Source of the DNA: Blastocystis sp. subtype 4
Taxonomy: Eukaryota
Direction of reading: 5' to 3'
NCBI RefSeq assembly: GCF_000743755.1
Contig: NW_014569514.1
Coordinates: 1 to 57,742 of the forward strand
DNA: 57,742 nt
Positions 17,250 to 46,138 of the stretch are shown piece by piece. The stretch's first letter is position 1; every line of letters starts with the position of its first letter. Position numbers and translations under genes: made by a program. A model generated the notes under the pieces. The model saw only the letters and a list, made by a program, of their open reading frames with translations. It searched no databases and was not told the origin of the DNA.

Positions 17250-18519
17250 ATGTTGGATGTTATACTTCTGATTTTAATTCTTTTCATTACTACGAATATT
17301 TCAAGGAGCGTAGAGTTTGTTTGTCATCAATGAGGAGTAGAGTTATTCGCAAGAACGTTTTTCCCTTACTGTCGTTTATACCAATCGTGCCTCTCTGCGA
17401 ATTGTTCCTACCCATCGTGCCTCTCCGCAGACTATTCCTTCTAATCGTACGTCTCTGCAAACTATTCCTCCCAATCAAACCTCTCTGCAAACTATTCCTC
17501 CCATTCGTTCCTCTTTACAGACTGTTTCTACCATACAACCTGATTCAGAACCTGTCATTTGGGGAAAACCACTGAAAGACGAGACCTGGAAGATTAGCAA
17601 AGCGCTACAAATGCTAATTGAAGGAAAACCTAGCGAACCAAATAATGTCATTATCTTCTCTCCAAATGTTTGGGCTGGATTTTGCAACAACTTTCGGACT
17701 ATTCGAGGACTTGCGCTGTATTCAATCCTAAAAGGCTTCAAATTGAGAAGTGGAGATAGTGGTTTTCAATTATAATTAGTTCTCTGGAAAGAGTATTTCG
17801 AGGTGATGAGCCCTACATTGTCTGTTCTGTCAAAGACTACTAGTCGGTCATGTGGTTTTATCGCGAACTTTTATGATAATGTTAATAATATGAATCTGCA
17901 TGGATGCTATTATACAAACGAAATCATGGATGTAACTGACCTCCTATTGAGTATCGAGGAAAATAGAAAGAAACTAGTTGAATTGGGTTTCTTTAGTGAT
18001 ATTCCGAAAAATGAAGAGGTCACTCACTTCCTTTCACTGGTATTTTTCCAATTGAATAGTGTTCTGCAAAAGGAGGTTGATGAATTCTATTCACAATATC
18101 GAAATGATTTTCTAGTTGGAATCCAGCTCCGAACTGGGGGCAAGTTGTCGGATTCTTATGAGAGTAGCATGTTTCTGACTGAGGAAAAACTACCATTAGC
18201 GTATGCATTTATTATGGAAGCAATTCGAAATACGACAATGCCAAATGTAACAGTGTTTTTGTCTACCGATTCATCGTATGTCCAAGCTGATGCTAAAAAG
18301 AATCTTCCTTACACTGTAATCAGTGCAGATATGTACAAGATTGGTCATTCATCGCCAGAGAGGCAACGTCAAAAAGTGCTTGATTGCACAAAGCGAGCCG
18401 TTGTTGATATCTATCTTCTATCTAAGTGTTCTGTTCTGATTACTACTGGTCATAGTTCATTTGGAGATACTGCAAATGCACTTTCACTTGCAACTACCAA
18501 ACTCCACCTCTTTGTATAA
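17250..18519 (+). CDS. Secretory-pathway fucosyltransferase-like protein (GT-B; NodZ/FUT8/GT37-like motifs) with a repeat stem
   Basis: Signal/anchor MLDVILLILILFIT; AGFCNNFRTI, VGIQLRTG, VFLSTDS, AVVDIYLLSKC...GHSSFG match the alpha-2/6-fucosyltransferase motifs I-III. Confidence 0.75.
17383..17532 (+). repeat. Five imperfect 30-nt tandem repeats encoding NRTSLQTIPP-like units
   Basis: NRASLRIVPT HRASPQTIPS NRTSLQTIPP NQTSLQTIPP IRSSLQTVST. Confidence 0.9.
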
Positions 18520-24167: not shown

Positions 24168-26449
24168 TTAACTTTGGTTGAAGAACATGGCAGTGTAATT
24201 TGGCAAGGGCCAATCATGATAGTCCACAATCTTTTCCAAATTGTCAACATGGAATCGAAGTTCATTCATTGCGGGAATGATATCATCTCTACAGAAGTAA
24301 GAGATCTGCTCCTCATTCTTAATACCGTTAACTGTATCAATGACTTGATTCAGTTTATTCAAGGCCTTAATGGAGTTATTAATCTCTTCAGACATGTACG
24401 ACACATAGGACACCTGATGTGTGATGTCTTGTCCAGGCAAAGCAGCAGACAACGCACTCAAGGATGAAGAGAATTGGGTTTGGGCTCGGAATACTGCAGG
24501 AAGGATTCGTTCGGTACACAATGCACGCATCGTACGAGCTTCAACGAGAATATCCTTATTGTATTGGTCCCACAGAATGCTTTGACGAGACGAAATCTCA
24601 CTGGACTTCATGATTTGCAAGGATGTGAACAACTCAACATTCTTAGGATCGGTCCATGCCTTGATTGCTTCAGGACTAGCGACATTGTTGGGAAGACCCA
24701 GTTCAGCTGCTCTTGAGATCCATTCAGAGGAGTATCCATTACCATTGAAGATAATCCGGTTATGTTTCTTGAGAATATCAGTGACTACCTTCTGAATGGC
24801 ATCATCCAGACATAGAGTCTGCTTGTTACGTAAGATCTCATCAGCAATGAAACGGAGAGAATCAGCCATAATGGAATTAATGACCATATTACTTCGAGCA
24901 GCACTCTGATTCGAACCAACAGCACGAAATTCAAACTTATTGACTGTAAAAGCAAAAGGTGAGGTTCGATTGCGGTCATTACCCTCACGATTGATTGTTG
25001 GAATTGACGTCACACCCAAACAAAGATTTTCATCGCCCATAGTCCGAGCAACACTTGTTTTCTTCATGTAGAGCTCCAGAGCATTACTCACATCTTCACC
25101 CAGATACATTGACATGATAGCAGGAGGAGCTTCGTTTCCTCCAAGACGATGATCATTGGAAGCACTAGTCACACATGCACGAAGCAGGTCACCATACTTG
25201 TCGACAGCACGAATTGAAGCAGCCACTGAGACAATAAATGGAATGTTTTTCTCGGGATGAGGACCCAACTCAAGGAATGTTGGTGTCTCCTTACTGCACA
25301 TGGACCAATTGTTATGTTTACCACTTCCATTCACTCCTTCAAATGGTTTCTCATGGAATAATGCTTTGAGACCATGTCGACGACCCTGCTTCTTCAAGAT
25401 ATCCATTCCTTGGAGATTCTGGTCCGTTGCAAGAATACTGCTACCATACAGAGGAGCGAGTTCGTACTGTCCAGGAGCAACTTCACGATGACGTGTAGTC
25501 GAAGGTATACCAAGCTTCCACATCTGAATCTCCACATCATGAATGAAGTTCAATGATTTTGTTGACATTTCAGCGAAGTACTGATCATGAAGCTCTTGTC
25601 CCTTTGGAGGAGAACAGCCAAACAGAGTTCGTCCGGTAAGCTTGAGGTCCGGTCGCTTATCATAGTACTCTCTCTGGATCAAAAAGAACTCTTGCTCAAT
25701 GCCACAGTTCACATTGATCTCCGTCTGAGGGTGACCAATGATCTTGAACAATCGATCGGCTTCTCGAATCAACACTTCTTGTGATCGAATGAAAGGGATC
25801 TTCTGATCTAGCACATCTCCCGTCCAGGATAGGAACACCGAAGGGATGTAGAGAGTGCCACCGTTATCGTGTTTGACAATCACAGGGTTACTGTTGGGAT
25901 CCCACACTGTAAAGCCGCGAGCCATATGGGTCTCACGCAAACCTCCATTCGGGAATGAAGAGGCATCAGGTTCACCCTTGATCAGCTTCTTGCCAGTGAA
26001 GTTACTCACTGCCTTCCCATTTACCCGAGTAATAACTAAACTTGAGAACCCCATCAAACCTATACAAGCATCTTGTTTCTGGGCCGTCACACCAGAAAGA
26101 GGTTGGAACCAATGACAGAAGTGGGTGACACCAAGTCCTTCGGCCCACTTCATCATAGCTTGAGCAACAACATCAGCCGTCTCCGGATCTAGTTGAATAT
26201 CAGGTTTCTTTCTGGCTTCTAGGACTCGCTGATAGCTGGATATCAAGTTACTTTCGAAATACGTACGCATATTTCGGGACCGACTTCTGAAGCATGTCAT
26301 CGTTGAAGGAGTACATACCAAAGACATCATCAATAAGGACAGAGGAAGAAGAGGAGACCATACGGCGTGTCATTCCAGAGAGAGTCTACCAATGTTCAAC
26401 CTCCAGCTGCTCTTACTGGTCTAGTGAGTAGACGGAGGCTGCTCAGCAT
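24168..26449 (-). CDS. glnN: Glutamine synthetase type III with a putative mitochondrial targeting presequence
   Basis: THFCHWFQPL, GEPDASSFPNGGLR, GIEQEFF, HREVAPGQYE, HEKPFEGVNGSGKHNNWS, HRLGGNEAPPAI, DRNRTSPFAF, FEFRAVG; N-terminus MLSSLRLLTRP/TLSGMTRRMVSS. Confidence 0.95.
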
Positions 26450-27171: not shown

Positions 27172-28416
27172 ATGAGCTCAAGTAGTGAAAATGGAGACAA
27201 ACAGCGAGTTAGAAATCGACGTGTTTCGTTTGATTATGCTCCAAGTGTGATAGATATCCAAATGAATGTTGGGCTATAAATACTGATTCAACATAGAGCC
27301 CACCAATTCTGACGATTCGTAGAAGGCCTAGTCATGTAAACGAGGTAGATTCGTGTTTTGGTCAGATTACATCGTAGCTGTCTATAGAACAGTTATATGA
27401 AGAGGCTCAACGATTGAAGTTGATTACAAGAAAAGATAGCCTGTTGAATATAGGAGGGGGTGATGATCCTAGAGGCGAAAAGCCTAAGAAGAAGCATCAT
27501 AAGAAGAATAGCAAGCATACATCTGGATCTCTTGGTGAATCTAATTCCGAAGCTTCAGATACTGATCCTTTTGTTTTCAGTAAAGAGGGTTTAATTGAAC
27601 AGTGATGGTGATATACTAGACTTTGTGTGTGAGTGTAGCGATGAGGAACTCCGAAGAATGGTCTCAAATGTATGGCGTGATTCCATGTTGGAGCGAATGA
27701 ATCTTGTTGGTATGCCCTACTATCACTCTTTATTTCAGGTTTGGAATATACTGCCGAGAGCTTTGATAATACAAATTTAGAAGAAGTCTATAATCTGTTC
27801 AAAGAGGTCACATATCCTTATACATGAAATATACGATCCCTTCACTGTACCCAATCAGCAGTCATCTACCTATTGTTGGGGAAGGAACACGAAGAGGAGA
27901 TGCAAGATGATATGTATCTATCATTGAATTTCCCTGCGTGTATGACAAAAGCAAATTTGATTCACTCGATCAAAGAGAATGCAGGAGTAGTGAAGAAGAA
28001 GACACGAAGAGAGCTTATTGATGAATTAGAGACAATCATTCTTTTTGCAATTCGTGATGATAGTAGAGGTACGAACCAGATTTAATTCAAAGATAAATGC
28101 AAGGGATATAACCAGTTGTTCTATTCTCCTTCCGAATATGTGGAAACCAACTTCGATGATGATGGAGAACTAAAGAGGGAACTAAAGAAACGAGGACTCC
28201 CTTGTCCTAAGTGAGGAAACAAGAAGATACTGACTTTTAGGAATATGCCTCAGCGCAAGAAGAAACTAATTGCTGTAATACGAAATGAGATGGGTTTGGA
28301 GATGTCTAAAGCGTTTGCTACTGTAACACGACTAGAACTGGAGTTCTTTAGGTATAAATCCTCCAGTGAAGATATCACAGATTTGTTCACACAGCTGTAT
28401 CATATCGTTTCTCAGT
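27172..28416 (+). CDS. Hypothetical protein with an RVxF (PP1-docking-like) motif and a SAP-like segment; contains an AT-AC intron; stop possibly poly(A)-created at T28416
   Basis: MSSSSENGDKQRVRNRRVSF; ELKRELKKRGLP..KKKLIAVI; exons link in frame through short introns. Confidence 0.6.
27812..27850 (+). other. U12-type (minor spliceosome) AT-AC intron, 39 nt
   Basis: 5' ATATCCTT, branch-point-like TCCCTTCAC, 3' AC; removal deletes an in-frame TGA and restores EVT/QSAVIYLLLGKEHEE. Confidence 0.8.
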
Positions 28417-28453
28417 ATCCTGTTTCTTGCAACAAAACAACATACAGTAACAT

Positions 28454-29831
28454 TCAATAATCCTTAACAAAGTAGGTCTCACCACATTGGCACTGACATT
28501 GGTTCCCCACACTCTGACAATAGCATGGCTGATCTTTATTTACATGAACATAGTCAATTCCACATGATACTTCAGCAACAGTAAATATATGACCACTCAC
28601 TCCCTTAACCAATGTGTTTCCAGCTAAATCTTTAAAGGCATTCTCACCAAAGGACATCGAGTACATTCCAGGCTCGAATTCCTCAGAGGGCTTTATCATA
28701 CACTCGTCATTGGAACAGGAAACCTCTTTAGAACTCTGAATATTCACCTCGATGTTGTTTTTCTCACCTGTAAACGAGATGACTCCAGCATTTGGAACCA
28801 CCATCTCACTAAAGGCAATACGAATTACAACCTTCTTAGGAACATTTGTCTTAAAGTTCTTGGGATGGACGAACAGAATGTAGGGCTTGTCACTGTCTAT
28901 CAATCAATTCTCAATCACAATATCACCAGACTCCACCGTGAAGAAATAATCATTTCTTGTACCACACTTGCTTCCACTCTGGCTGAGAACAATACCAGCA
29001 TTAAATATCACTTGGTACTTTTGCAGACCCACAAGATTGAGGTCATAGATCACAATCGACATATGATCTGGACCCAACACAACGTGCTTTGTGTCGGTTA
29101 CATCGACAGTAACACTGCTACGAGGATGATCCATCACAGAGTGAAATTCAATTGTTCCCATACCAATGTGAACAATTGAATCAAAAGCAATTGTCACGGT
29201 AGGCTTCATTGGAATATCAACAGCATCGAATGGAGGATAACACCTGGAAGGAACCACATTAGCAGCAAAATCTATATGTCAGCAAGCATCTTCAGCTACT
29301 ACCACTGATCGTGTAAAAAACGATACTCTTATATTCTAGGCCAAAGGCCTTCTCATTGATGCCAATTCCCTTGATACTAGATAAGGTCTTAATGGTATTT
29401 CCTTCAAGACGCTGAGATAGATAAAACACATAAGCAGTATCAGGTTCAAGCACATCACCAAGACAACTAACAATAGGGAACTCCAAAGTGTATTCATTCA
29501 CCATTTTGATACAAGAGGCAGGAATCTCTGTCGAAGTACCTCTAATCTGGTTTAGAAGATAGAAGAAGCCTGAAAAACTTTGAGAAGAAGGAACAGCATC
29601 ACTGAATTGAAGGTGAATCGTAGTATCAAGAAGTACGTTTACAGCCGACTGGGACGGTGAATACTTTTTAATATAAAACTCGTTACTATCTATAATATAA
29701 GTAAAAATCCAAATAAACGTACCAGACTCAAATGTAATAGGATCTTCACAGTTCACATCATCAGCACTGCAAGAAGATTGGGCAACTGATGCAAGGCAAA
29801 TGAGGGCCAGAACTATGGTAATACTCTTCAT
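28454..29831 (-). CDS. Secreted protein with about 3 SbsA/Big_5-type Ig-like domains and a six-Cys C-terminal module
   Basis: Signal peptide MKSITIVLALICLASVAQS; repeats P..S..NV....I.LQFS / P....V....V.IAF / FKDLAGN; C-terminus CGIDYV..N....CYC......CQCQCG. Confidence 0.8.
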
Positions 29832-29984
29832 GGCTAACCGAGATTTGACCTAAGGATAAACTAACGTCCCACTTAAAATATGTCCCCTATTTATACAGGA
29901 AGAAACTACCGTAATTCGGGTAATACCAATATTATTACCGGATTATTTATCGACTTCAATTCTCTTTGCATATTTCTAGCGGAA

Positions 29985-31797
29985 ATGATCGTTCCGAAAC
30001 ATGACGGATACTCAGTCGTCAACTTGATGATGGACATGTTCCTCGTGAATTGGCAATGGACTCACTCGTAGGGTTATGGTCATGTCCATTGTAGTCTTTT
30101 TAAATGTTTCTCTTCGATTAGCGCCAGAAACTGTGACATTTATCATGCGAAGTTGATGAAATAGGCACTGATAAAGAAGATTACATCGACAGCGTCACCT
30201 ATTACACGATTGTATGAAAGGATGTATTATCCTTCGGTTCAAGATCGAGCCATGAAGCTTGTTTCCGACTCGGGGGCTAAACAAACACAAATTCGGATTG
30301 GAACAGTAGCAGAGGTGAAAAAAACGACGAATGCATCATCTGTTCCGTATTTCATTCGTAAGAGCGTCTTTGAAGTAGCAAAAGCCAAACAACTTATTTC
30401 CTCTGCTACTACTGTGGAAAATATCGATGTTCCTGCATTGATTCGTCACTCTGCCACCATCAAGAAGTACTATGGGAATAATGAAGAAGCGTACGTTCCT
30501 CCAAAGGGTTGTACTGTTTATATATATTCTTTGAAAGCTAGTTATTCACAATGATGCTTATCCTTATGATATCTCGCTAGTAACCGTGATTCGGTTTGTA
30601 TTTCCTCGTGTTTTGATCTCTAGAATCTCTGATATCGATAGAATTGTCAAGATGAGCAACTACTGGTCAGGGTACTTTTATGTCACCTTCATTAGAATTA
30701 GACCGATCAATGTCTGTATCTTTGCTGAGGACTATTCTTCTTCCTATCCAACCATTCAATATGTCTTGTCCTCGGATGCCTTTCAAAGCCGAATCACTCT
30801 TACTGTCGTGTATTCTGATTTCTACAATGTGCTATTCCCTGCCAATATGTTGAAAAACATCGCTATCTCTACTGTCTTTACTACACATTTCATTGAAATT
30901 GATTCTACCATGCTTCCTTCTTGTTTCAATTCCTTCTTGATTTAATTTTTAGCTCTTCTTTATGATAAATTGAGAAAGATTCCGGTGACAGTTCTGTATG
31001 AGCCGATTAATCTTGTGACTATTCCTGTGTTTTACACAAAGGAGTGATGATGAAAGACTAGAATAACTTGTAGAGAGGCTGATATTGGAAATATTAGACA
31101 GTGTCTTCGTGAGAAGAAATGTTTCCCAAAGTACTTATCAGTGATGGTTTGAATGATCGATGTGGATAATTCTTAGAAGGAATGGTTGGAACCTAGTTCT
31201 GCTTCCTCTTTTATGGGACAAATGAGTGATTTGGAATCAAATTCTGTCTAGTTGGCTTCAGGCGAGTCTATAATTCCTAGTTATATGATGCGTCGTCACA
31301 ATTCCTTCGATATTCTCTATGATGAGAACTTTCTCATGAGAGGATATGATGATGTGGAATTGGTTCAACACTTGTACCATGAGAGTACAGGATCAGAAAA
31401 AGTATGAGGTTTAGAGTTTGTTTTCTACTTGCTTATGGATGAGTATTTCCTGGATTACTCCATTCGGTTGTAGGGGATGAAATTGAAGACAAAATCTAGG
31501 GAGGTTGAAAATGCCGTACTACAGAAGGATCCCGAGTTTAAGGCTCAATATGAAGAGTTCCTCAGTCATATCCCAGAAAGAGAATCTGGAATTGAAGCTG
31601 GATCTATCGAAACAGATCCATTACTTGCTGCATATGTAGAGTATTGGAGAAAAGATCAGGAGATGAGAGAGAAGGAGGAGAATGAATTGACTCATCTTTT
31701 AAATACACAGAAGAATCATTTTGATCTTCTAACCTGGGATCGACGGGTTACAGAGATTGTGTCAAACCGAGAAACACGAAGGAAAGAAAGTTATTAA
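29985..31797 (+). CDS. GT49 (LARGE/B4GAT1-like) glycosyltransferase; start approximate
   Basis: DISLVT..SDIDRI...WSG/PINVCIF; FPANMLKNIAI...TTHFIEIDSTMLPS; EP..M...YDENFLMRGYDDVELVQHL. Confidence 0.7.
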
Positions 31798-31847
31798 TGT
31801 GATTGTTATGTACTATTGTTTGTAACAGTTCCTTCGTTCATCATAGA

Positions 31848-33836
31848 ATGCTTCGGTTCCTTTCACGATTCGGGGAATCTGCTAAAGGAAGACGATTCTT
31901 CTCTGGATATTTACCGTCTGGGATAAGAAAAATGCCTACAAACCGGTTTCATCTGAGAGGGACTCTTCCAGGCTTTCAAGAAGTGAATCGGAACTTACCA
32001 CTTGCTTTTACGCAAATTCGATCTGTTTCATCCATTCATAAGAAGTACATGAAGATTGAGTAGCGACAGTATCCTAGTATTACGCCTAGTGTAAAGAAAA
32101 AGAAGGAGCGAAAGGAGAAAATGCCGAAAGTTGTCCAAATGAAGCATTTCTCGGTTGCTTTAGTTGGAAGAACGAATGTTGGCAAATCTACCTTATTTAA
32201 TCGACTTGTCGGGAGAAAAGATGCTCTTGTGAGCAAAGAGGCTGGAACAACTCGGGATCGCAGAGAGGGTTTAGCTCATATTAGTGGATTGGAATTCACA
32301 TTGATCGATACTGGTGGTTATGTTGTTAGCAATAAGGACATTTCGATGACAGAACAACAGATTAACAAACAAACCGAATATGCGGTTGAGAAAGCAGATA
32401 TCATATTTTTCCTTATCGATGGAAAGGTTGGAATTACTGGAGAGGATCGTGGAATTGCGGCGTAAGATTTGAGGAGTGGATTAAGGAGTAGTTGGCTAAG
32501 AACCAAACAGAGCGTTAATAATTTCCCAATCTATGTCGTCGTGAACAAGGTAAGAGAAGAATTTTAGATGATATGTAGACGGAAGGACTCTTTACGAAAG
32601 TAGATGCTAATGGAGACTGTGCTCCTTGGGAAGACATGAAAGCCCAAATCTATGAACTAGGTTTAGGTGAACCTATTGGTGTCTCGGCAGAACATGGAGA
32701 TGGTCTCTTAGACATCTTTGATGTTTTGTACCCATATGGAGACTTGCTTAATTTACGAAAGAAAGAGGATCGAGAACGATATGAAGCCAGTCAGCAGCAA
32801 ATTTCAACCGATACACAACCATATGACATTCGATTTAATGTAGATGCAGTTGGAATTCTTTTGGAGATTGAGATTTAGGAGGAAAAGGATCGTGATGATG
32901 AGATTCTTCAACTCACAATTCTTGGGATCCCAAACAGTGGAAAATCCACCTTATTGAACACTTTATTAAAGACTGATCGATTTATTACTGGAAGTATTCC
33001 TGGATTGACACGGGATACAGTTAGTACTGAAGTTGAGTATAAAGGACGTAAGATTCGACTTGTTGACACTCCTGGTATTCCAAAAGCAGATGGTGTGTTG
33101 CCTCCATCACTCAATTCGCTCAGCATCTATCATGCTCACAAACAGCTAGATTATGCTCATGTTGTTGCTCTGATTCTGGACGGAAGTCGAATTCTCACAA
33201 AGCATGATCTGGCTCTTGCTAAGGAGATTCTCGATAAGGGTCGAGGTCTCTTCATCGTTCTGAATAAGAGTGATGTGATGCAGTCGACGGCGGTTGCTAA
33301 GAAGCAGCTGGTCACCTACATCGATCGTTACATCCCAATGGTATGATTTGAAGAGTGGATGGAACTTAGGCTGGAAAAGTACCTTCTATCGTTGTATCAG
33401 CACTCTATGGGAAGGGAACAGATGCAGTGTACCCACTAGCTTTAGATGTGTTTGATCGCTGGCGAACTCGGATTTCAACGGGTATTCTCAATCGATGGTT
33501 GGAGGCTGTGACCTTCCGACATCCTCCTCCACGAACAAGTACTGGAAAGGAGGTAAAGTTAAAGTTAGTCTGAGGGATCAGATTGATTCATAGATATCTA
33601 ACGCAAACGAAAGCGAGACCACCAAGCTTTGTATTATTTAGCAATGTGAAAGACATTGACCGAACCTATCTTCGATACCTAAGTTCCTGCTTACGGGAGG
33701 AATTCAACTTGGATGGAATTCCGATTCGAATTTTTGTAAGAACAGGCGATAATCCCTACACAGTAGGTATCGTATTTTTTCGTAACGTTAAGAGCCACAA
33801 AGTCTGAAAAACCAAAGGGCAACTGTCTTTTACTAG
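31848..33836 (+). CDS. der: Der/EngA double GTPase, organelle-targeted (stop at 33807 or 33836 depending on the last acceptor)
   Basis: GRTNVGKSTLFNRL, GTTRDR, DTGG, VNK, SAEHG; GIPNSGKST, GLTRD, DTPG, LNKSD; YLTQTKARPPSF..YLRYL..LREEF.LDGIPIR; Arg/Phe-rich presequence. Confidence 0.93.
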
Positions 33837-34040
33837 TCTTGTTTGTTTCAATCGAGAATGGAAAAACTGTGGCTGCAAAAGAATTACGGGAATTTTTAAA
33901 CACTATGCGAACTTGGGTGATGAATCGTCTTACCTGAGAAATGGTTCTTTTACCAGATTTTCTAAGATAGAACATTTACTAACAAGGACAATGTTTTCTG
34001 TAGGAGCGAGATGCTGTTTTTGTGGTTTCTTACCTTCTAG

Positions 34041-37000
34041 ATGATACTTGTTGCGTTGTTGCTTCTATCGTGTTCTACAGCTTTTACAGTACAGTGTACG
34101 ACTCCTGATATGAATACCTATTCACCTCAGGTTTCGTTTGTCTGTACCTTCTCTGAGTCTGTCTCTTTGAATCATGTGGAGAGAATCTTTGTTCCTAGCC
34201 TTGTATCAGTTTCTCCTCTTAGTGGAGAACATACTGTTTACACGGTTGTTGCTGAGGTGCAAGATGACACTCTCGGAGAAATTTCTCTCCTTCTGGGAGA
34301 GGGCGCTTTCGTCAAGGGTGAAGAGCGTTCTCCTGAGTATATGGTGACAGTTACTTGTTCTAACTGTGTTTTGGGTCTCATGTCTAGATGATTTTGTATA
34401 TGAACATGTCGATGTTGTTGCTACTATCAACCATCTTTCTGATAGACCTGATTTCGCTATCATTTACATCTCTGGAGGAATGACGGTTCGTCCAAACTTC
34501 CAAAGCATTAGCGAAATTGCTGTTCTTCCTCCAAGTGTGGACGTGATTAGTGTTGAAGCGACCCTAACCTCGTATGTGGTCAAGGTGTTCGTGAATGATC
34601 CCAATTCTCTGCGTGAGGCTACCATTCGGATCAAGGAAGGAGTGATCAGTTCATACTGGGGTCAGAAAACTAATATGGAGAAGGATGTGTCTATTGATGT
34701 GCCTCCTCTGGATCATAGTGAATCTACTTTCAAACTTTGGCCCACCTATGGAACGATTTACACTTCTTCGGATGAGTTCCGCTATCCTATTCCTACTGGT
34801 GGTTGTTCTGTTGATGTACAGTCATTCTCTGGAACGAATATTGAAATCGTGCGTGTCGAGAATGATGAGGTCTCACAGTATCTGGTTGCTCGTTTAATGG
34901 ACCCTTCGATCCCTGGTGGCATTAGCTTCATTGGTTATGCCCCTGACACTTGCACTTCGTACAACTATCCTGTGGAGCCGAGCGTGATGGTTGTGAAGGA
35001 AGCAGTGCCTACATATGAGATTACTTACAAGACCGGTACCTCTGGATGTGTGGATGTGAATGTACTCTTCAGTGCTCCTGTCAAGTTTGTGTCCGATGCC
35101 TATTTCAATATTACTTCTGTCTCTCAAGTGGCTCCATATGTGATAAGTACTCCAGTACATCCTGCAGGTCCTGAACACTATTTTGGCCTGGAAGCCACGA
35201 TGTGTATTAGTTCTACAAGCGATACTTTGTTGGTCTCGATGAATCGTGATGCTGTGAAGACTCCTTCTGGTGCTCTGATCCCTGAGCAGGAACCCATCTC
35301 TATCTTGGTATCGAAGTTGACTCTGGTTGTGAGACTGCTTCCTGACGACCTTCCTGAGTCCTCTCAGAACATGACTTACGTCATCCGTCAGCCGACTGTT
35401 ACCTTGTCCTTCGGCACTGACACTGATTCCTCTATTAACATGAATCGTTGTGACTTCTCGAAGGCTTTCACTTCTGACTATAACGTTGCTCTGTCAGTGA
35501 CTATGGAAACCTCGCGTCTGAGAGTGGCTGCTACTACCGAAGCTATCGATCACCATGTGATTGCCTTCCATGCCGATCGTGTTACTTGCAGTGGTTCCTT
35601 CACTGTTGAGTTCCTTACCCAAGAGTTCAAGTATGCCTATGATCCTCCCTTCCGTCCTGGTGACATTATCATCACTCGTGTCAATTCATATTACTCTGCT
35701 GAGTTCGACTTTGTGCCTCTTCGTAAGATTTTCTCATGGAACAAGATCTACTTCACTGATGCTGGTTGGGTGAACGAATATTATGGATTCATTGATCATG
35801 GTTCTGATGGTTACATCAGCTGGACTCCTAAGACTGATGTGAATGCAGGTACGGTTCAGCAGTGGAGTTATAAGGCTATGACCGACAAACTGGATCCTGA
35901 GATTCCTTTCGTCGTGAACACGGAGTATTCCTTCAACTATGAGCAACATGGTTTCCTGTTAGATTTCCAGGATAACTTGTTCATTTATGCAACTGGCAGT
36001 TGTGATACGAACTCTGTTTATGATGACTTCGGCCATATCAAATTCATTTTCGGTGTGTACTGGTCGTCTTCAGAATGGGCTCCTGAGACCTTCAATTACT
36101 TGGACATCACCTCTGAGTATTCTGCATTACCTCAGGTTCTGACCAATTATAGTATTGCTCTGGGCTTGGAGTCTAAACCTGTCCCTCGTGGAGTGAACTA
36201 TATGTCAATTGATCAAAATCACTTCTTCACTTTCACGTATACGTACTATCACATCATTGAGATGATTGTCGATAAGCAGAACTGGTTGACATCTCAGAAG
36301 GATCGATTCATAACAGCACCTCAAATCGCCTACATGGAACGTCCTATGGATTTCACAGTGGAGCAGGTCGATACAAGTGTCTGTTTCAACTTCGTGACAC
36401 CGTATACAGTCACACGGAATGTGGACATTGCAACGTGGAATATGTCGAGAATACGTCTCTACTTCAACGACGAGCCTTTGATCCCTGAGATTACTTACTC
36501 ATCTGCTGGTTATTGTGTGAACTATGGTAATCTTACGACGGAGGGTATAGTTCGTCTGGAGATGGAGAAGGGAGCTTTCGTCTATACAACAACCTCTACA
36601 AAGACTCCTGTGTCATTTGAGTGTGTGGCCTACAGCATGGAGATTATGATATATAATGTCCCTGAACTCATTGTGGACTACGCGACGGACTCTGTACTTC
36701 AGAAGGTGACTATCACATCCACTATTCCTTGTGTTGAGTGGGGATTCATCTCTGCATTCAACAGCAGGGCTGTACATATTTCTCAGTCCTCGACAGAGAC
36801 CGTTTTGGCTTTCACTGCTGTGGATGCAGGTGCGAAACTCTATCTTGATAATGGTTTCTGTAAGACTGCAGGACAGCGGGAGTCTGAACGACTTCTCCTT
36901 CCCACTCTCACGGTGGCTCCTATGTCTGGTCGCGAGACAATATTGCGTGAGGCCTTCTTTAAGGAGGTATTGAGCAAGCATGAGGTGAACACGATTAGTG

Positions 37001-40000
37001 TGAAGGCTCCTGATGTGGACTGGACATTGTCGACTGATCGTTTGGAAGATATGAACCCTGAGTGGAGTGAGTTTGATCCAGCGACTGGAGTCATAGAGTT
37101 AACATTCCGTTTCCCGATGGAAAATGGAAAGAAGACTGTAGTCTTGCCTCAAGGTCTATTTATCAAGAATCAGACCCTCTCACAGGGAATGACTCTTTCC
37201 TATTGGATGCAACAGGGTGAAGTCGATGTGATGCAATCTCTCACACTTCCTTGGGCTGAGTCGGTTCGTGAAGAATCTGTCCGAGAGGCAGTGTTCAGTG
37301 ATGGCTTTGTTGTGTCGAGTGGCAGTACTCCTACAAATCTGCTTCGTTTCGAGAACATGTGTCGTAGTATTGGTTACAAGATGGGTGCTTCCATACCTAC
37401 ATCTGTTAGCGTTGCTCTTATGGATGGAGACTGTGTGTATGGAGTACATGAGAATAGGATTATGGATCCTTATACTAATACGAACTCTGGATTTGAAGAT
37501 ACTTTGGAATTCGATTTCCTTCCTCCGATGGGTGAGGCTATGCTTGTAGATGAGATTACTAGCGAGAAACCTGAAACGAATCGTTTCTACTGGAATCATT
37601 CTCCTGTAGTGGCTCTGTTTTTCAATGAGCCCCTTGTTCATTTCAATGAGTCACTTCTTCTAATCACTGTCGATCATTGTGATATCGTCTCCGCCAGCCA
37701 TACGATTGAAAATGATCAGAGTATCATTCACTATAGCCTTTCGAACTGTGAGGAAGGACCTATTCGTGTGGATGTCGTGGATAACATCGTATTGCAGGAT
37801 AATGACGACAACCTCTGTGTGTCTCATGAGTGTATTAGCAATTTCCCGTTGTTGTTCGAGACAGACTATACAGCTCCTAACATCATTATCAGTACTGTTG
37901 AAGCATTATATGGAAGCGAGATGGATGTTTCCTTCGAAATCTCGGAGCCTGATACAACATTCACATGCAATTCAATTGGTATTGCTGTGGAGAAAGTGAA
38001 CTTCGTGGTTACTCAGGTTGATAAGTCAACTTGTCATTACTCCTTCACTCCTGAACCTGTGAATGGAACATACATTCTCTTGTCTGTACCTGCTGGTCGC
38101 TTCGTGGATAAGGCCTTGAATCCTAACGTTGCTTTCAAGCCTTTCGGTATCCCAGTCCTCAACAAGGGTGCTCAGATCTCTGTAGTTGCTCCTACTTTTA
38201 CGAATATGATGAAGACAGAGTTCACTCTCTCCCTCAACTACACATGGCTTTGTCCCAACTATGAGCACTTGTTCCCTTCAACCTTCCAGTATGATCGTAC
38301 TCTGGCCCATATTGAGAAGAATGACGAAGGTCAAGTCGTGGATGGAACCTTCATTCAGACTTTCTCTATCACTTTCCTGAACTTTGATGCGACTCATAAG
38401 GACCGCCACAGAAACATCCCTATTTACATTCCTTCCAGAGTGTGTATCAACCCACTCGGTCTCTACAACCAAGGAGTGACCTTCTATATGACTTTCGACA
38501 ATACGCATACTGTGCCTTCCGTCACATTATTAGACCGAGAGTCTGATGATAAAGACTTCACTGTGGATATCACTTTTAATGAGGTTCGTAGTTTTGGAGA
38601 GAAGGAGCCTAAGGAATATGTGGTTGTAAGTTATGCCAATCAGACGTTGAATTGTAATGTGACTCGTCATACTGAGGCCGTCTCTTTCACTTACAGAGTC
38701 AAGTGTCCTCTGAATGAAGAAGGAAACGTAAATGTGACTATTCTTGATGGTGCTGTGGTGGAAGTAACAGGTACTCCTTCACAGACCTTCTCGAAGTTAC
38801 TGCGCATTGATAGATATCCTCCTATGGTGGTTATATCTTTTACTAAGGGAAACACTTTTGGTCCTGATATTATCGAGCTCCCAATGCTAATGAATGCCAC
38901 AGAGGTGATGACTGTACCACAAGATAAGAATTCCAGCTGCTTCGGGATAGACCACGAGAAAGGCATTAAGGTCCAGGTGAGTCCTCTTCCTTCTCAGGTT
39001 GCGAACTGGGAAGTCATGGTGACAATGATTCGTTTGTTCTCGGAGCTCCAAGCTGGTTCGTTCAATATCTACATTAAGGAGCATTGTATGAAGGATGAGG
39101 ATGGGAACTACAACGTCCAATCGAATAACCTGACCTTCTACTATGACTTCACAACTCCTAACGTTACTCTAAATTGTCCTTCTTCGACTGTATGGCGGAG
39201 TATGACTATTACTGGAACGATGGACGAACCTTGTCACCCACTCACGGAAGCCAATATCGTTATGCCGGATGAAAACTGCTCTATAGATAGCGGTAGTCTT
39301 AGTTCGACTGAGACGGCCTTCTCCTTTACGGTGTCTTGCAGTGTGATTGGTAACTACCAGTTCGGTCTGCGTGGTGTGAAGGATCTGGTGGGTAACGAGG
39401 CTCGGATCATAGGTGTGTGTAATGGAAACTTTACGGTGAATGGACCTAGAATTGATTACGAGATTCGAAATCTGGTTAATGATAGATATATCAACACTCC
39501 TTCGTTCACAATCTATCTATCTGTTTCTTCTTGTGCTTCAATGAATCTTACCGAGAATAATGTGATCGTCGAGAATGTGAAGAACCTGCAAAGGACACGA
39601 ATGGCTACTTGCCAATGGAGATTAACTGGAAGTGCCGAGGAAGATGGTCGGGTGCTGATTCGTGTATTATCAGGTGCTGCTATAGATATATATGGAGCCC
39701 CTTCCCTTTCGTTGTTGATTGACGACTTCTTTAGCTATCAAGCCAAGCCTGAGGTGACCACTATATCACGTAGTCTTCTGCCTTCAGGTATGACAAGTGA
39801 TGTGTATATCTGTTATGATACGAGTATTGTGCGTGGTGAGGGACATGTGCTGACAGATGGAGGATGTTCGGATGCTTCGGTAGATCGTGTTGAAGGTAAC
39901 TGTGTGTACATGCAAGTGGCAGTGACAACTGGAGAGCGTTGTTATCTGTATTTGGAAGAGGATCTCGTCAAGACTGCCTGGGAGTTGAGTTCAGTTGGTC

Positions 40001-43000
40001 GTTATGTATGGATTGGGATCGATGATCATCCTCCTGCTTTGAATGTGGTGGCTAGCATTGATGATACCGATTCATTACCTGTCCCAGATGCCACCGATTC
40101 TCACAAGCAACATTTCTATTTGAATGGTAACTTCGTCTTGAAGTTGGCTGTGGCTAGTTCTTGTCGTTTGGATCTGGAGAAATTGGATCTTGGAACTGCC
40201 ACTCTGACTGCGGTTTCAAAGTCTTCATATCTCGAGATTCCGTTTACATTCGATAGTGACGCTGATAAGGATATTCAAATCACTATGAATGAAGGTCTCT
40301 TGACAGATAGTTTTGGTCGTAAGAACGAACGAATGGTATATATGATTCACTATAGCAAGGCTATAGCTGTGGTATCTGTGGAGATGACGACCTATTCCAG
40401 TAAAGTACCCATCACAGCATCTGTGTCTTTTGATAAGGACGTGTATATGACTGCTAAGAATGTCATATCAATGATGAACTTTACATTTATTTCCACTAAT
40501 GCTCGCAAGTATGAGTTGGCCTTCGAACCTGAGGTGGAAGGTATGTATACCTTTGAGTTACAGAATATTAAAACGATATTTGGTAATCCTGTGGATAATC
40601 AATCGTACTCGTTCTACTATTACACAGAGCAACCCACTCTAACCAATACCATCCCTGAGATCGAGACGACAACAAGTGGTAATGGTCGAGATGGACTTAT
40701 CCAAATGTTCTTCAGCCATCATATGGCTGATCTCTCTGATACATCATTGGATGATATGTTTGTGTCTGAATCTGGATCGCTTTCGGAATACTTTGATTTG
40801 GTCTCAGCTACTGTGAATGAAACTGAGGTATCAGTTAAACTGACTCCAAAGTCTACTTCTGGAGACTATTACAGGTTCCTTGTGAGATTTAATGATAATG
40901 CCTTTGTGGACAGAGCAGGCAATACAGCTGTGTCGGCTAACTTCACTCTTATAATCGATAACCGTCCTCCTACTGTTACATCTGTTCTCCACAATGGTGG
41001 TGCGATCTTCTCTCGACTCCCTCTTTCTCTCGTGATCACGTTCTCAAGACCAGTTGTTCTGGCCGAGAACTTCGCTTCAATGGTGTCTGCATCAAGTGGA
41101 GATGTTGTGCTTTCCTTCTCTTCACCTAGGGCAAAGCTTGTAAGGGAACTCACTATGCCGGAACACGTAACGGAAGTCACTTTGGTCTCTGTTGAGAACG
41201 ATATTCCTCTAACTGTGGGAATGGAGTGGTCTGTGACTGTGGAGCCTGGTATTGCTAAAGATGAATATGGTGTGGTGATAGCACATAAGAATGAGACAAC
41301 TATGACGGTGACAGATAGGACTTTGACTCTGGAAACAATTGGATACGGCGCACAGAACACTTCTTCTGTGATGCTGACATTTGACAAGGAAGTATATGAT
41401 TTGAAAGAGGATAAGTTGACGTTGGTAAATGCTGATATAAAGGAGTGGAGTACGGAGGGTAAAGTGTTGAATCTCTCTCTCGAATGTGCTACACAAGGTG
41501 AGTGGTCGATTCATTTTGATGTTGCTGCTGTTGAAGGTATTGATGGGAGTTTGACAACGGAACCATTCGATGTTAAGGATAAGTTTGACAACATGCCTCC
41601 TATTGTGACCTGTGAAGTGCCTCCTACCATTGGTGCTGGACAAGTCAACATTACTTGTAATGCTTCGGAGCCCATTCAAAAGACCAGTTCGATATTCTCA
41701 GTGGTGCGCGATAGTATGGTGTTGGTTTCTACAGAGACACTGAGCGAGGATAGGTTGACTCTGTGGATTACGTTCGTGGCTGTAGAGACCTATTCTGCTG
41801 GTGAGAGTTATTCTGTGGTCATAACTTTGGATGACTGCCGAGATGATGCTGGTAATGCTTGTTCCCCTGTTCAGTACATAACAATGGTTGACTTTACTCC
41901 TATTCTTGTTAAGATGAGTACAAGCCGTGATTATCTTCATAACAACGAGACTGTCACAGTGACTGCCGACTTCTCCAAGCCTATTATTGCTGACAGTGTA
42001 GATCTTGTTATGGATTATGATGATGATCTGATTACATTAATTATGGAGTTAGACTCCATGGATGTGGCTCATCTGAGTTACTCATGGGTGATCAGGGTGA
42101 TGAGCACAGAGTTGACCTCGGATATCGTTCCTATATATTTCGAGATTCCTGCTGGAGTGGTCAATGATAAGTTTGGTAATGTCAATGAAGAGGGTTTGGC
42201 AACTGTGTATCTGAATGAGCTGTCGCCTGAATTGTTTGCTGGATGTCGACAGAATGAGAATATGATCGAGGTGAATGTTACGGTGCAGAATGGACCTCTG
42301 GGTCCGATCGACGCCGAGATGTTTGAGTTGTCGGAGAATATTCACTTCGATAAGGTTGTGTCCATAGTGTCGGATAATTCGTTGATGCCTGGTTCCTGGA
42401 TTCAGGCGAATCTCATGTTCATTGTGACATGTGAGACTTCGTGTTCTTATTCCATTCGCTTCCTTCATGAGAAGATCTTCAATCTGGCTGGTAATCAGAT
42501 GGAAGAGGATTTGTTGATTGATGGTATATTTGTGCGTGCTCCTGTGGTATCAGTGAATGTGAAGCCTTACTATTCGGCTGAATTGGATCAGCTTGAAGTG
42601 TCTGTGTCTGAGAGATCTGATATCTATTGTCAGCTCATCCAGTTCAATCTGCCAGAAGTGGAAGTTCAGCCAAAGTCGTGTTTGAATGCTCTTGAGTGTA
42701 TATGTACTGTCAACTTCGGTGCTGTCACCGAGATGTCCAAGGTCAGTCTGACCTTCCCTGCTCACTCCATTAGCAACGCTTATCATGTTTCCAACGAAAA
42801 CACCGTAGAGGTCTCTTTCTACTACAGTCCAGCACCTACTATGCCCTTGTTCTCCACACAGTGGGATGAAGATCAGCCTGTGGTGAATATCGACTTTACT
42901 GTGTCTGCTGGTTCTCCAGGTGTGAACCTTACAGAGAATATGATTCAGTGTTCAGGTTGTGAAGTCTTGAACTGGACTCTACTTGACACTGAAGCTGAGA

Positions 43001-46000
43001 TCATGATGTATTCGTTCCTTGTATCCTTCTTGGATGATCAGGCAAATTATGTTCGTGTGTATATTGAGGCTGCGACGTTCATCGATCCGTTTGGCCGTCC
43101 AAATTTGGCTAGTGAGAAGGTACTTCGTCGTGACGCTGAGGCTGTAACGATTCAACAAGTCATTTACTCGGAAAAGCGTGATGATGTGTTAGAACTGGTT
43201 TTCTCGAAGCCCGTGTATCCTTGTGGTGGTAATGTGGCTCTGACTTGTCTATCGAATCATACTTACACCTACTATCGTAATAGTCAGCAAAATGAAGTCC
43301 GCTATTCAGCTCAGAAAGTTTATATCTCGTTGTTGCCTTATGGTGATCTCGATTATGAGGTGTCCTGGGATGAGACTGCTTTCTGCGACTCTACCAACTA
43401 TCCTGTAGCAACAGAGTGTACAGACTGTACCTTCCATAGTGCTCCGAATGTCCCAACTCCTCCTCTGTTGAGTGTGGAGGATGTAACAGCCCATAATGCT
43501 ACTATTCACTACATGATCACACACGATGGAGGTGAACCTGTCCTGTCGGCTGTCGCTTACGTCATGCCTGGTGCTGATTTGGCCCCTGCTATTTTCCGTG
43601 CAGATGCTGCCACAGGAGAGATATTGTTGACAGGTCTGAATGCCAATACAAACTACCGTGTCACGGTCCTCCTGAGAAACGTTTATGGTTATAGCATGCC
43701 GAGTGCTGAGCAAATCTTCTTAACAGCCCCTTCGACACCTGTATCTGCTTCTGATCTGCGTATCTGCGATATGGTGAATCCTACCAAGATTGGTGATGTG
43801 TATGTTTACAGTGAGGCAGAGGCTTGTTGGACACCTTCTCCTACAAATGATATATTCTATCGTCTGGAGTTGAGTGCTTTGATTGATGGTGTGGCTCAGG
43901 ATCCTGTGGTGATGTATGAGGGTGTGAACACCACGGCTATCATTACAGTTCCGGACCATGTCACCTCATATCGTCTCACCCTGACAACCGTGACCATGGG
44001 TCAAGTAGAAGAGGGTGAGGACTCTGTGAGTGTGTCTGCAGACTTTGTCACTGAGGTGAATCGAGAGAATGTCGAGAAGTTCCCTCAGGGAGTGGGTATC
44101 GTTGCAGTTGCGGAGCGTTTGACAGAAAGTTCGGTGCGTGTGAGTTTCACACACCCTCTGGAGAACTACTTCCGTATTGAGCGATACGAGATTTTGTACG
44201 GAAATGTGGATGATAGGACAGTGACTGCTGTAAGTCTAGCTCGTGAGAGCTATGAGTTCCTTATGGATAAGTGTGTTAGTGATCAGGTCATATTGACGGT
44301 GCGTGCTGTGGTAAGAGATGACTTCGGAGGTATTCCAAGCAATCGTGTCGTTGTGTATTGTAAGAAACCTCGTCTCCAGCTGGTTACAGACGTTGGTTAT
44401 GATTACGTGGCCTTCCGTGTGACGAGTGAAGTGGCTACAACAGTAACATGTAGCTTGAAGAGTCAGTTCTCAGCCGAGATTTTGGCTACGCGGGCTCTGA
44501 AGGTGCATCCAGTGAATGTGGCTCCTTACCAGCTGTTTAAGAGTCTTTATCCTGACACTGAGTATACTATTGAGTGTTTTGGCTATGACCTGGACTTTAA
44601 CTTGATGTCTGGTTTGGCTTCTTTCCATACTCTCTCCAACTTTGTGTTGCCTGAATTCACTTTGGACGAGATCACGGAGCCAATGCTTGGTAGCTATTAT
44701 GTTGAAGTTCCTGTGGCGTCTGTGAGTGTGCCTGGAACTATGTATTGTGCTGCTCGTCCTATCGATCAACCTTTCCTGCTCTCTCGTTCTCAGTACATGA
44801 AGGAGGATCATAGTGCTTATGTCTTCCCTGGTCAGAAGGATGTGAAGGTGGTGGTGAGTGGTTTGAAGCCTGAGACTGAATATCGTGTGCGTTGTATCTT
44901 TGATCCTGATTACGATGCTGCAATAGATGTGACCCCTCGTCGTCTGGTTGACAGTGAATTCACGTTCAAGACTCCTGCTATCAGTACTCCTTCATGGAAG
45001 TCTATGCAGCCTTTCGGATCTGTAGCTGTTCCTGCTCATACTCAGCTTGTCCTGGAGGCTTCAATGCCTGTCAAGTCGTACCTGAATGAGCTCATTCTTC
45101 ATGGTGTGAAGAACAGTGAGAATGATGTGATCATTAAGAATCGGGACATTTCGATTGATGGTGCTGTGATTACGATTACTTTGCCTACTCTGGTCCCTGG
45201 AGAGGAATATGTTCTAGAGATGCAGACAGGATGCTTCATTGATGCTGTTTCGAACTTCCCTCTGCCTGGAGTGACAATTGCTGATGAAGTGGCTTTTATG
45301 GTGTTCAATGATAAGACCCTTAGTCTGGCACCTACATTACTGGATACGGAGCCTAAGACAGATTCTGTAGCTACAGTTCTGAATAATAATGTGATCTTTA
45401 TATTTGATCGCTCTATTCGTCTCGAGTCATCAGCTGAATTCCGTGTGCGTGTGGACAACAAGACAGTGTCGCTGAAGGCTGACCAGGGAATAGTTGACGG
45501 TACCATGTTGACGGTGCGTACTGGTGTCTACTTCCCTGAGGATTCTGAAGTGGAAGTGTCCATAAAGTCAGGTGTGTGCAGTCTCTATGGAGCTTGTGTG
45601 AGTGAACCAATGAAGATCAGCTTCACGGTGGGTAAGAAGAATTTCAATCCTTCAATGCTTGATATTGTCCCTAAACCTGGTCAGAAGCATGTACCCGCGA
45701 CGGAGGATCTGGTACTGACATTCAACAAGCCAGTTGTTCTGGATGACACATATCAGATGACATTTATAGATGAGAAGGACCAGATCTTCTCACTGAATTA
45801 TGGTGTGGAGAAGTCAAAGATCACTCCTCGTCTGAGTGTAGTTCGTGATGAGATTCGTGTGCGTGGAGATGCTATTCCTGGAGGTCATACATACAGAGTG
45901 CTTTTCAATGCAGAGGCAATTCATGATAGTGAGGGCCGTTCTGCCTATGGAGTTCCTTCAGATTATTCGTTCTCTTCTTCTCAATATGGCTGCAGTGGTA

Positions 46001-46116
46001 ATTATATCTATGAGAACATGGGAGACGAGTGTCAGTGCTTCATTACTAATGAGAAGTGCGAGTGTAGATGTGGTAAGGAGAATCTAGTTGACACTGTGAT
46101 TGGTATGTTCCTCTAA
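34041..46116 (+). CDS. Giant (~4,014 aa) secreted protein with many bacterial-type Ig-like domains, FN3 domains and a six-Cys C-terminal module
   Basis: Signal peptide MILVALLLLSCSTA; one intron 34357-34387 then an 11.7-kb open exon; recurring D.AGN and D..PP.V linkers (Big-type), GLNANTNYRV and GLKPETEYRV (FN3), Big_5-like C-terminal repeats. Confidence 0.88.
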
Positions 46117-46130
46117 ATTGTTGTAAAGAG

Positions 46131-46138
46131 TGTTTGTT
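46131..46138 (+). terminator. TGTTTGTT polyadenylation motif of the giant Ig gene
   Basis: Exact motif 14 nt after the TAA. Confidence 0.75.

What the first reader, a model, noticed from the sequence alone, without database searches (positions are those of the whole stretch)
28454..46116. Two secreted Ig-repeat proteins share an identically spaced six-cysteine C-terminal module: candidate surface-coat system
Seen: the small protein ends CGIDYVHVNKDQPCYCQSVGNQCQCQCG (28564-28481) and the giant protein ends CSGNYIYENMGDECQCFITNEKCECRCG (45991-46074). Both fit C-x3-Y-[IV]-x2-N-x4-C-x-C-x6-C-x-C-x-C-G, both directly follow SbsA/Big_5-like Ig domains, both proteins have signal peptides, and neither has an obvious TM anchor. 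I do not recognise this module as a named domain. Inference: a family-defining disulfide oligomerisation or anchoring tag that assembles short and giant Ig-chain subunits into the fibrillar surface coat, analogous to mucin cystine knots or bacterial sorting domains.
Basis: partly seen in the sequence, partly recalled or inferred. Interest (0 to 1): 0.85.

Follow-up and report, generated by a model that had tools for sequence, protein, structure and literature searches.

The report
New cysteine tail on Blastocystis proteins
The gut protist Blastocystis transcribes two related genes, for a 427-residue and a 4,017-residue antibody-like chain protein, that end in the same unnamed, strongly conserved six-cysteine tail; both proteins are likely secreted, and the tail likely acts as a docking piece that would join them into an outer-coat or adhesive fibre, which is untested.

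Summary
Both motifs lie at the stated coordinates, right after a Big_5 Ig domain. One RNA run shows both genes spliced and polyadenylated just after the module. The small protein is identical to Blastocystis ST4 JH06_0694. The small gene's last 23 codons are nearly frozen while synonymous sites saturate. I found only two paralogue classes and nothing outside Blastocystis, but the exhaustive profile search never ran. No Pfam, NCBIfam or PDB family matches. AlphaFold2 gives a low-confidence four-stranded beta-meander whose register favours three intrachain disulfides, and the cysteine count is even. So a mucin-type covalent knot is unlikely; a disulfide-stapled docking or assembly sheet fits better. 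Binding and coat location are untested (complex tool unavailable). Verdict: undescribed conserved domain, plausible coat candidate, mechanism inferred.

The parts
28454..29831 (-). Small gene, 427 aa: signal-like N-terminus, three Big_5-type Ig domains, six-Cys module. Exons 29831-29723, 29689-29303, 29271-28927, 28896-28454. Identical to Blastocystis ST4 JH06_0694 (XP_014529124.1)
   Evidence: RNA joints and poly(A) at 28443 in run X5; GT..AG introns; spliced model equals P0069 at 427 of 427 residues; names; Pfam 2 stretches in P0069, 3 in P0041, P0083 and P0108
29775..29831 (-). Predicted signal peptide of the small protein (about 19 aa)
   Evidence: Most hydrophobic window of the protein; similar leaders in 6 of 6 full-length copies; no predictor run
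28598..28896 (-). Last Big_5 Ig domain of the small protein (residues 281-380)
   Evidence: PF13205, whole protein 66.7 bits against a cut-off of 23.6; CopC-like Ig fold in the model
28457..28564 (-). Six-Cys module and last strand of the small protein (residues 392-427); predicted four-stranded beta-meander
   Evidence: 17 of the last 23 positions invariant in 10 aligned rows; pN 0-0.07 against pS 0.48-1.12
33991..46116 (+). Giant gene, 4,017 aa: signal-like N-terminus, long beta-rich stalk (Ig-like by inference), FN3 domains, three Big_5 domains, six-Cys module. Exons 33991-33999, 34041-34356, 34388-46116
   Evidence: RNA joints and poly(A) at 46127; model; Pfam; five orthologue clusters at 41-85% identity over the last 363 aa
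43459..43707 (+). Best FN3 stretch of the giant (Pfam finds 2)
   Evidence: PF00041 E=1.1e-10
45649..45974 (+). Last Big_5 domain of the giant (best of 3 stretches)
   Evidence: PF13205 E=5.7e-15
45991..46113 (+). Six-Cys module and tail of the giant (residues 3977-4017); the tail has a longer loop and ends in a short hydrophobic strand
   Evidence: six Cys invariant in the window and 5 of 5 orthologue representatives
46131..46138 (+). Blastocystis polyadenylation motif just after the poly(A) site of the giant gene
   Evidence: motif described in PMC5608401 (passages)

Best explanation
The two genes are old paralogues that share their last Ig domain and a six-cysteine end module, which is predicted to fold as a small four-stranded beta-sheet, likely stapled by three disulfides within one chain, and likely works as a non-covalent docking sheet that would gather the short and giant Ig chains into an extracellular, probably coat-associated, assembly. 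Shown: gene structures, transcription, domain order, paralogy and purifying selection. Predicted at low confidence: the meander. Inferred: (1) secretion; (2) Cys2-Cys6 and Cys3-Cys5 form cross-strand bridges on the central hairpin, and Cys1-Cys4 ties in the first strand; (3) a lone sheet with conserved residues on both faces needs partners, so modules pack face to face or edge to edge, like propeller blades supplied by separate chains; (4) the small protein acts as short arm or hub, the giant as a long arm (about 35-38 domains and 130-150 nm if fully Ig-like, using a recalled 4 nm per domain); (5) the assembly is part of the fibrillar surface coat.
For: Selection is concentrated on the module. 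In the small protein 17 of the last 23 positions are invariant against 23 of 84 in the Ig domain before it, and 12 of 18 without cysteines. For those 23 codons pN is 0-0.07 with pS 0.48-1.12 in 6 of 6 pairwise comparisons. The giant's module window is among the 29 most conserved of 3,895 windows, cysteines included. In one lineage the giant's stop appears to be made by polyadenylation exactly where it keeps the same tail length (L011, L012). Both AF2 runs give the same four strands, with the turn between the two Cys-bearing strands. The two best VIA matches are BBSome chains (rmsd 1.3 and 1.9 A on 34-35 residues; Z 3.9 and 3.6, not significant), which I recall to be beta-propeller proteins. 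Both faces carry conserved hydrophobic or Gln residues in the small protein (faces assigned from the predicted register). Cysteine counts are even. Small and giant types each form one side of a 100/100 branch. Both occur in several lineages, and matching longest-contig lengths (66709, 66705, 66698, 32912; 54695, 16421) hint that they stay linked in two other lineages (indirect). The coat is fibrillar and so far described by its carbohydrates (PMC6115916, parts 1-2 of 3).
Against: The module models are weak (pLDDT 48-71, pTM 0.38) and returned no coordinates, so the disulfide pairing comes from strand register, not from measured distances. The two modules have different outer faces (Gln-rich against Lys/Glu/Arg) and both are acidic (net -1 to -5), which does not suggest simple complementarity. 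Linkage is weak evidence, because neighbouring housekeeping genes are syntenic too and at least two unrelated genes lie between the pair. Nothing places either protein in the coat; cyst wall, vacuole or free secretion remain open. Most of the giant's stalk is not shown to be Ig: Pfam finds 3 Big_5, 2 FN3 and one sub-threshold Big_12 stretch, and self-profiles found few repeats. Splicing and poly(A) come from one run, X5; the 7 other runs laid showed no splice joint.
Confidence: 0.4

Rival explanations
1. Anchoring tag: each module binds a third component (membrane protein, chitin or other coat glycan, or a sorting receptor), so the two anchorless proteins are held at the surface independently and do not bind each other.
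For: Neither protein has a TM or GPI-type hydrophobic tail. The small protein's outer face has invariant Gln and aromatic residues, as glycan-binding sheets often do (recalled). The coat contains chitin and other glycans (PMC5608401 passages; PMC6115916). Each class keeps its own tail.
Against: No carbohydrate-binding family matches (the chitinase rows are E=0.45-3 and miss the cysteines). The two modules differ at most outer-face positions, which argues against one shared ligand.
Confidence: 0.25
2. Covalent polymerisation: some of the six cysteines bridge chains, as in mucin/VWF tail-to-tail dimers, building a disulfide-linked mesh.
For: C-terminal position on secreted multidomain proteins; six invariant cysteines; C-x-C pairs also form the interchain bonds of VWF (Cys2771/Cys2773; PMC8626975 passages). 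An even count does not exclude domain-swapped bridges.
Against: 6 Cys rather than 11, none left over; even total of 14 in 6 of 6 full-length small proteins. The predicted hairpin puts Cys2 opposite Cys6 and Cys3 opposite Cys5 within one chain. No cystine-knot family among the matches.
Confidence: 0.15
3. Folding cap only: the module closes off the last Ig domain in cis and is shared merely because one gene end was duplicated; it mediates no assembly.
For: Similarity covers the last Ig domain and the module together, and only two paralogue classes were found.
Against: A cap would not need near-invariant exposed residues on both faces or a fixed C-terminus. AF2 shows no confident packing on the Ig domain (module pLDDT 48-66 against 82-89 for most of the Ig domain).
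Confidence: 0.12
4. Metal or redox module: in the reducing gut the cysteines bind Cu or Zn, or shuffle as thiol-disulfide switches.
For: Weak matches to the metallothionein MymT (E=0.31) and to CopC (E=0.002); all six Cys lie on one predicted face.
Against: Scores are far below the cut-offs (11 against 80 bits; 18.5 against 95). The CopC likeness is the shared Big_5 fold. Secretory-pathway cysteines are normally oxidised (established knowledge), and the other cysteines of the small protein come in pairs.
Confidence: 0.08

Closest known systems
Big_5 / SbsA Ig-like domain proteins (PF13205); UniRef100_D8M817 'SbsA Ig-like domain-containing protein'
   Same: Both proteins carry Big_5 domains above the Pfam cut-off; the small protein's ST7 orthologue bears this automatic name.
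   Different: The family entry does not cover the six-Cys end module. No genuine prokaryotic carrier of the module was found in two GTDB pattern scans.
C-terminal cystine knot (CTCK) of von Willebrand factor and gel-forming mucins
   Same: Cys-rich domain at the very end of a long, likely secreted multidomain chain; a candidate tail-to-tail assembly role.
   Different: CTCK has 11 Cys with 3 interchain bonds (PMC8626975) and knot connectivity I-IV, II-V, III-VI (PMC3328748). This module has 6 Cys in about 28 residues and a predicted ladder-like pairing (II-VI, III-V, I-IV).
Beta-propeller blade / oligomeric propellers built from separate chains
   Same: Four-stranded antiparallel meander of about 35 residues; the best structural matches are BBSome chains, recalled as propeller proteins.
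   Different: Z at most 3.9, within the range of common arrangements; no sequence likeness (3-6% identity in the top four rows); disulfide-stapled; one blade per chain. Oligomeric propellers are recalled, not tested.
Cystine-ladder beta-hairpins (theta-defensin, protegrin type; recalled)
   Same: C-x-C facing C-x-C across a hairpin, giving cross-strand disulfides.
   Different: Here the hairpin is part of an acidic four-stranded sheet on an Ig chain, not a free cationic peptide.
IgM/IgA tailpiece and J-chain hub (recalled)
   Same: Works-like analogy only: short C-terminal beta-strands gather Ig-chain arms into a hub that includes an unequal partner.
   Different: No homology claimed or found; tailpieces use an interchain cysteine.

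Membership tests
Big_5 Ig-like domain proteins (PF13205) | Score above the curated Pfam cut-off | tested here: met
   Giant 56.4 bits, small 66.7 bits, cut-off 23.6
Big_5 Ig-like domain proteins (PF13205) | CopC/SbsC-like beta-sandwich fold | tested here: inconclusive
   Model's best Foldseek rows include CopC and SbsC (prob 1.0) but none reaches E<=0.001
CTCK of VWF/mucins | C-terminal position on a secreted multidomain protein | tested here: met
   Module ends both transcripts; secretion inferred from hydropathy only
CTCK of VWF/mucins | 11 cysteines, 3 free for interchain bonds | tested here: not met
   6 Cys in all module strings; even total in 6 of 6 full-length small proteins; definition from PMC8626975
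CTCK of VWF/mucins | Knot connectivity I-IV, II-V, III-VI | tested here: inconclusive
   Predicted strand register favours II-VI and III-V, but the models are low-confidence and gave no coordinates
CTCK of VWF/mucins | Drives tail-to-tail dimerisation | not tested
   No complex was folded; needs a complex prediction or bench work
Beta-propeller blade | Four-stranded antiparallel meander | tested here: met
   DSSP on both models, low confidence
Beta-propeller blade | Significant structural match and closure into a ring | tested here: inconclusive
   Best Z 3.9; 0 of 48,161 chains at Z>=5; ring formation untested
Prokaryotic sorting or anchoring domains | Match to a curated Pfam or NCBIfam sorting-domain model | tested here: not met
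   No such family for either module
Metallothionein MymT / CopC | Score above the NCBIfam cut-off | tested here: not met
   11 against 80 bits; 18.5 against 95 bits
Subtilisin (S8) proteases, the ST1 annotation | Peptidase_S8 catalytic domain | tested here: not met
   P0041 (OAO12754.1) gives Big_5 and two sub-threshold families only
TM- or GPI-anchored surface proteins | Hydrophobic membrane segment or C-terminal GPI signal | tested here: not met
   No 19-residue window above 1.54 outside the leader; the tails end within 8-13 residues of the module's Gly. Hydropathy only, no GPI predictor.
Blastocystis surface-coat protein | Localisation in the coat | not testable with these tools
   Needs immuno-EM or surface proteomics

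The most novel reading that the evidence does not exclude
The Blastocystis surface coat has a protein skeleton: single disulfide-stapled blades from separate chains close into a ring-shaped hub that mixes three-domain adaptors with a giant Ig arm over 100 nm long. This would be a new assembly domain and the first named structural proteins of the coat.
Probability: 0.2. Interest if true: 0.75.

Novelty: new variant of a known kind. Interest (0 to 1): 0.45.

Why it matters
Blastocystis is the commonest gut eukaryote of people. Its fibrillar coat is linked to adhesion, trapping of bacteria and protection from host defences, yet the review I read describes it only by its sugars (PMC6115916, parts 1-2 of 3). 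These two conserved, expressed genes give named candidates, and the near-invariant small-protein tail is a cross-subtype epitope with which to test coat location directly. The finding also flags a database mislabel (a 'subtilisin-like protease' with no protease domain) and a 4,017-residue gene whose orthologue clusters carry no name.

Tried and rejected
No whole genome was held and the loci's records were not searchable, so copies per genome were not counted. The full HMMER search of 1.84 billion representatives never ran (queue full on all 10 tries), so the range outside Blastocystis (Proteromonas, other stramenopiles, alveolates) is open. A degenerate DNA-pattern scan did not run, so there is no unbiased motif census. 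Word-based search with the small last exon found nothing (0 of 86 candidates). GTDB scans: 0 of 130 stretches confirmed and 2 of 39. Those 2 (L014, L015) and metagenome hit L013 score 8-20 bits against 73-84 for real modules, match only the end of the profile, and sit in frames without the rest of the module, opposite or across longer frames: rejected. Viral contigs: 0 of 78. ESM Atlas: Big_5 clusters and unnamed hits under 0.9; no usable hit for the module. PDB sequence search: best E=0.24; one search used a profile dominated by one long row and is uninformative. Foldseek on the module: nothing at E<=0.001 in PDB or BFVD. A missing structural match does not show a new fold. Pfam Toxin_28 and PaRep2a rows are below cut-off. 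An overlapping-frame cause for the tail's conservation is rejected, since synonymous sites are saturated. RNA contig depths cannot give stoichiometry; four further runs added only fragments. Eight paper searches on Blastocystis terms or the accessions listed no description of these proteins. The ST1 secretome table of PMC5608401 (file 22, part 1 of 2) uses locus tags that I could not map; most other supplementary files were not searched. Subscription journals and bioRxiv supplements, where Blastocystis proteomics tables may lie, were not seen.
Full report
1. Observation. The six-frame scan finds the motif twice, at 28564-28481 (-) and 45991-46074 (+), and never in 200 residue shuffles. Pfam puts Big_5 directly upstream in both proteins; the giant also has 2 FN3 stretches and one sub-threshold Big_12 stretch. 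The last Ig domain and module of the two proteins align at 23% over 147 residues, E=3e-11 for the single comparison. With cysteines fixed, the other 22 positions still align better than 1,991 of 2,000 shuffles. The likeness is homology, not chance spacing.

2. Genes and organism. Run X5 (labelled RNA by guess, but with spliced joints and poly(A) ends) removes three introns from the small gene and two from the 5' end of the giant. It ends in poly(A) at 28443 and 46127, just past each stop. The other 7 runs laid showed no splice joints. The models are 427 and 4,017 aa. The small one equals XP_014529124.1 / JH06_0694 of Blastocystis ST4 at every residue. The polyadenylation motif of Blastocystis follows the giant's poly(A) site (PMC5608401 passages). 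Each protein's most hydrophobic window is its N-terminus, and no other exceeds 1.54: likely secreted, no anchor. The giant has 37 N-glycan sequons, the small none. The genes point away from each other, 4.2 kb apart, with a spliced double-GTPase gene and at least one other conserved gene between them.

3. Relatives. The giant's last 363 aa found 5 clusters of 2,219 candidates, at 41-85% identity; none of their 27 members carries a name. The module profile found 13 of 131 candidates: 11 small-type and 2 giant-type. Every named member is Blastocystis, as ST1 'subtilisin-like serine protease-like', ST4 hypothetical and ST7 'SbsA Ig-like'; the ST1 protein has no protease domain. In a tree of 17 rows, small and giant types each form one side of a 100/100 branch; the tree is unrooted and most inner branches are weak. 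No third paralogue appeared, and the prokaryotic hits were artefacts. These searches depend on shared words, and the exhaustive profile search did not run, so restriction to Blastocystis is not shown.

4. What is conserved. All six cysteines and the Gly are invariant in 21 small-type and 8 giant-type strings; these strings were picked by that spacing, but the alignments show the same. In the small protein, 17 of the last 23 positions are invariant in a 10-row alignment against 23 of 84 in the Ig domain; the first strand varies (2 of 12). For those 23 codons pN is 0-0.07 while pS is 0.48-1.12, so the constraint acts on the protein. In the giant the module window ranks in the top 29 of 3,895; note that 61 of 75 cysteines are invariant along the whole open frame. 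In L011 and L012 the frame reads on, but the polyadenylation motif sits where a poly(A)-made stop would keep the same tail length (inference from the rule in PMC5608401).

5. Fold. Two AF2 runs give the same four strands for the small module, at low confidence (pLDDT 48-71). With the turn between the two Cys-bearing strands, Cys2 faces Cys6 and Cys3 faces Cys5, leaving Cys1 for Cys4. This is inferred from the register; no coordinates were returned. Cross-strand disulfides at non-hydrogen-bonded pairs are established knowledge (one modelling passage seen, PMC3681726). Mature small proteins hold 14 cysteines in 6 of 6 full-length copies, so none is left over. No family matches in Pfam, NCBIfam, PDB sequences or the Atlas. 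Foldseek finds nothing significant. VIA-align's best rows are BBSome chains at Z 3.9 and 3.6, with 0 of 48,161 chains at Z 5 or more: a common arrangement, a lead only.

6. Mechanism. A single small sheet with conserved residues on both faces and a fixed C-terminal strand most likely packs against partners. I favour non-covalent assembly through disulfide-stapled sheets, joining a short three-Ig chain and a giant chain outside the cell (0.40). Rivals: independent anchoring to a third component (0.25), interchain disulfide polymer (0.15), mere folding cap (0.12), metal or redox module (0.08). Against my reading: no binding was tested, the two modules have unlike, equally acidic outer faces, linkage is indirect and shared with housekeeping neighbours, and most of the giant's stalk is Ig-like only by inference (nine D-x-x-G-N/R/H motifs; few self-matches).

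7. Comparison with known systems. The proteins are Big_5 family members. The module is not a CTCK: VWF's has 11 cysteines with 3 interchain bonds (PMC8626975, passages), and knots pair I-IV, II-V, III-VI (PMC3328748, passages). It may still work like one, as a tail-end assembly domain. The coat review describes loose fibrils and carbohydrates and names no structural coat protein in the parts read (PMC6115916, parts 1-2 of 3). The ST1 genome paper's secretome section discusses collagen-like proteins and proteases, not these proteins (PMC5608401, section 11). In PMC10690189 I saw the abstract, section 10 and a term search without hits. Eight searches listed no description; subscription papers and most supplements were not seen. 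The scan's own notes held nothing on this.

8. Verdict. A real, undescribed, strongly conserved C-terminal domain on a paralogous pair of likely secreted Ig-chain proteins of Blastocystis: a new variant of a known kind. Interest 0.45: it makes the open question of the coat's protein make-up testable, but assembly and location are inferred.

Noticed in passing
P0041 (OAO12754.1, OAO13163.1), orthologue of window 28454-29831: Annotated as subtilisin-like serine protease-like in ST1 but has three Big_5 stretches and no protease domain; two ST1 accessions share this one sequence.
   Followed up: yes
L011:4064-4216 and L012; P0003, P0010, P0011, P0037: The giant's orthologue in this lineage lacks a genomic stop after the tail; the polyadenylation motif sits where a poly(A)-made stop would end it, so the database proteins carry a false read-through extension.
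   Followed up: partly
window 29748-29771 (-): The small protein starts with a conserved acidic two-cysteine segment before its first Ig domain (alignment A6), a second candidate interaction site.
   Followed up: no
window 51861-53684 (-): Gene with a hydrophobic stretch, Pro/Cys-rich short repeats, a long coiled-coil-like region and a C-terminal hydrophobic stretch; one in-frame stop, likely in a short intron; only a weak Extensin_1 match.
   Followed up: no
window 17776-18516 (+): NodZ/FUT8-like fucosyltransferase fragment, of possible bearing on coat glycans.
   Followed up: no
window 24171-26369 (-): Type III glutamine synthetase in one long open frame.
   Followed up: no
window 31863-33726 (+): Double-GTPase (EngA/Der-like by inference) gene between the two Ig genes, with six 29-30 nt introns removed in run X5.
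   Followed up: partly
window 30165-31404 (+) and 27828-28457 (+): Conserved genes with no Pfam match in the frames scanned flank the small gene in other lineages; the downstream one's open frame runs up to the small gene's stop codon.
   Followed up: no
window 35548-36150 (+): Aromatic-rich stretch of the giant (residues about 400-600 of the open frame) is its most conserved 200-residue block (43% invariant); a candidate ligand-binding head near the N-terminus.
   Followed up: no
P0030: ENA protein whose C-terminal part equals the window's small protein but whose N-terminus is unrelated; probably an assembly chimera.
   Followed up: no
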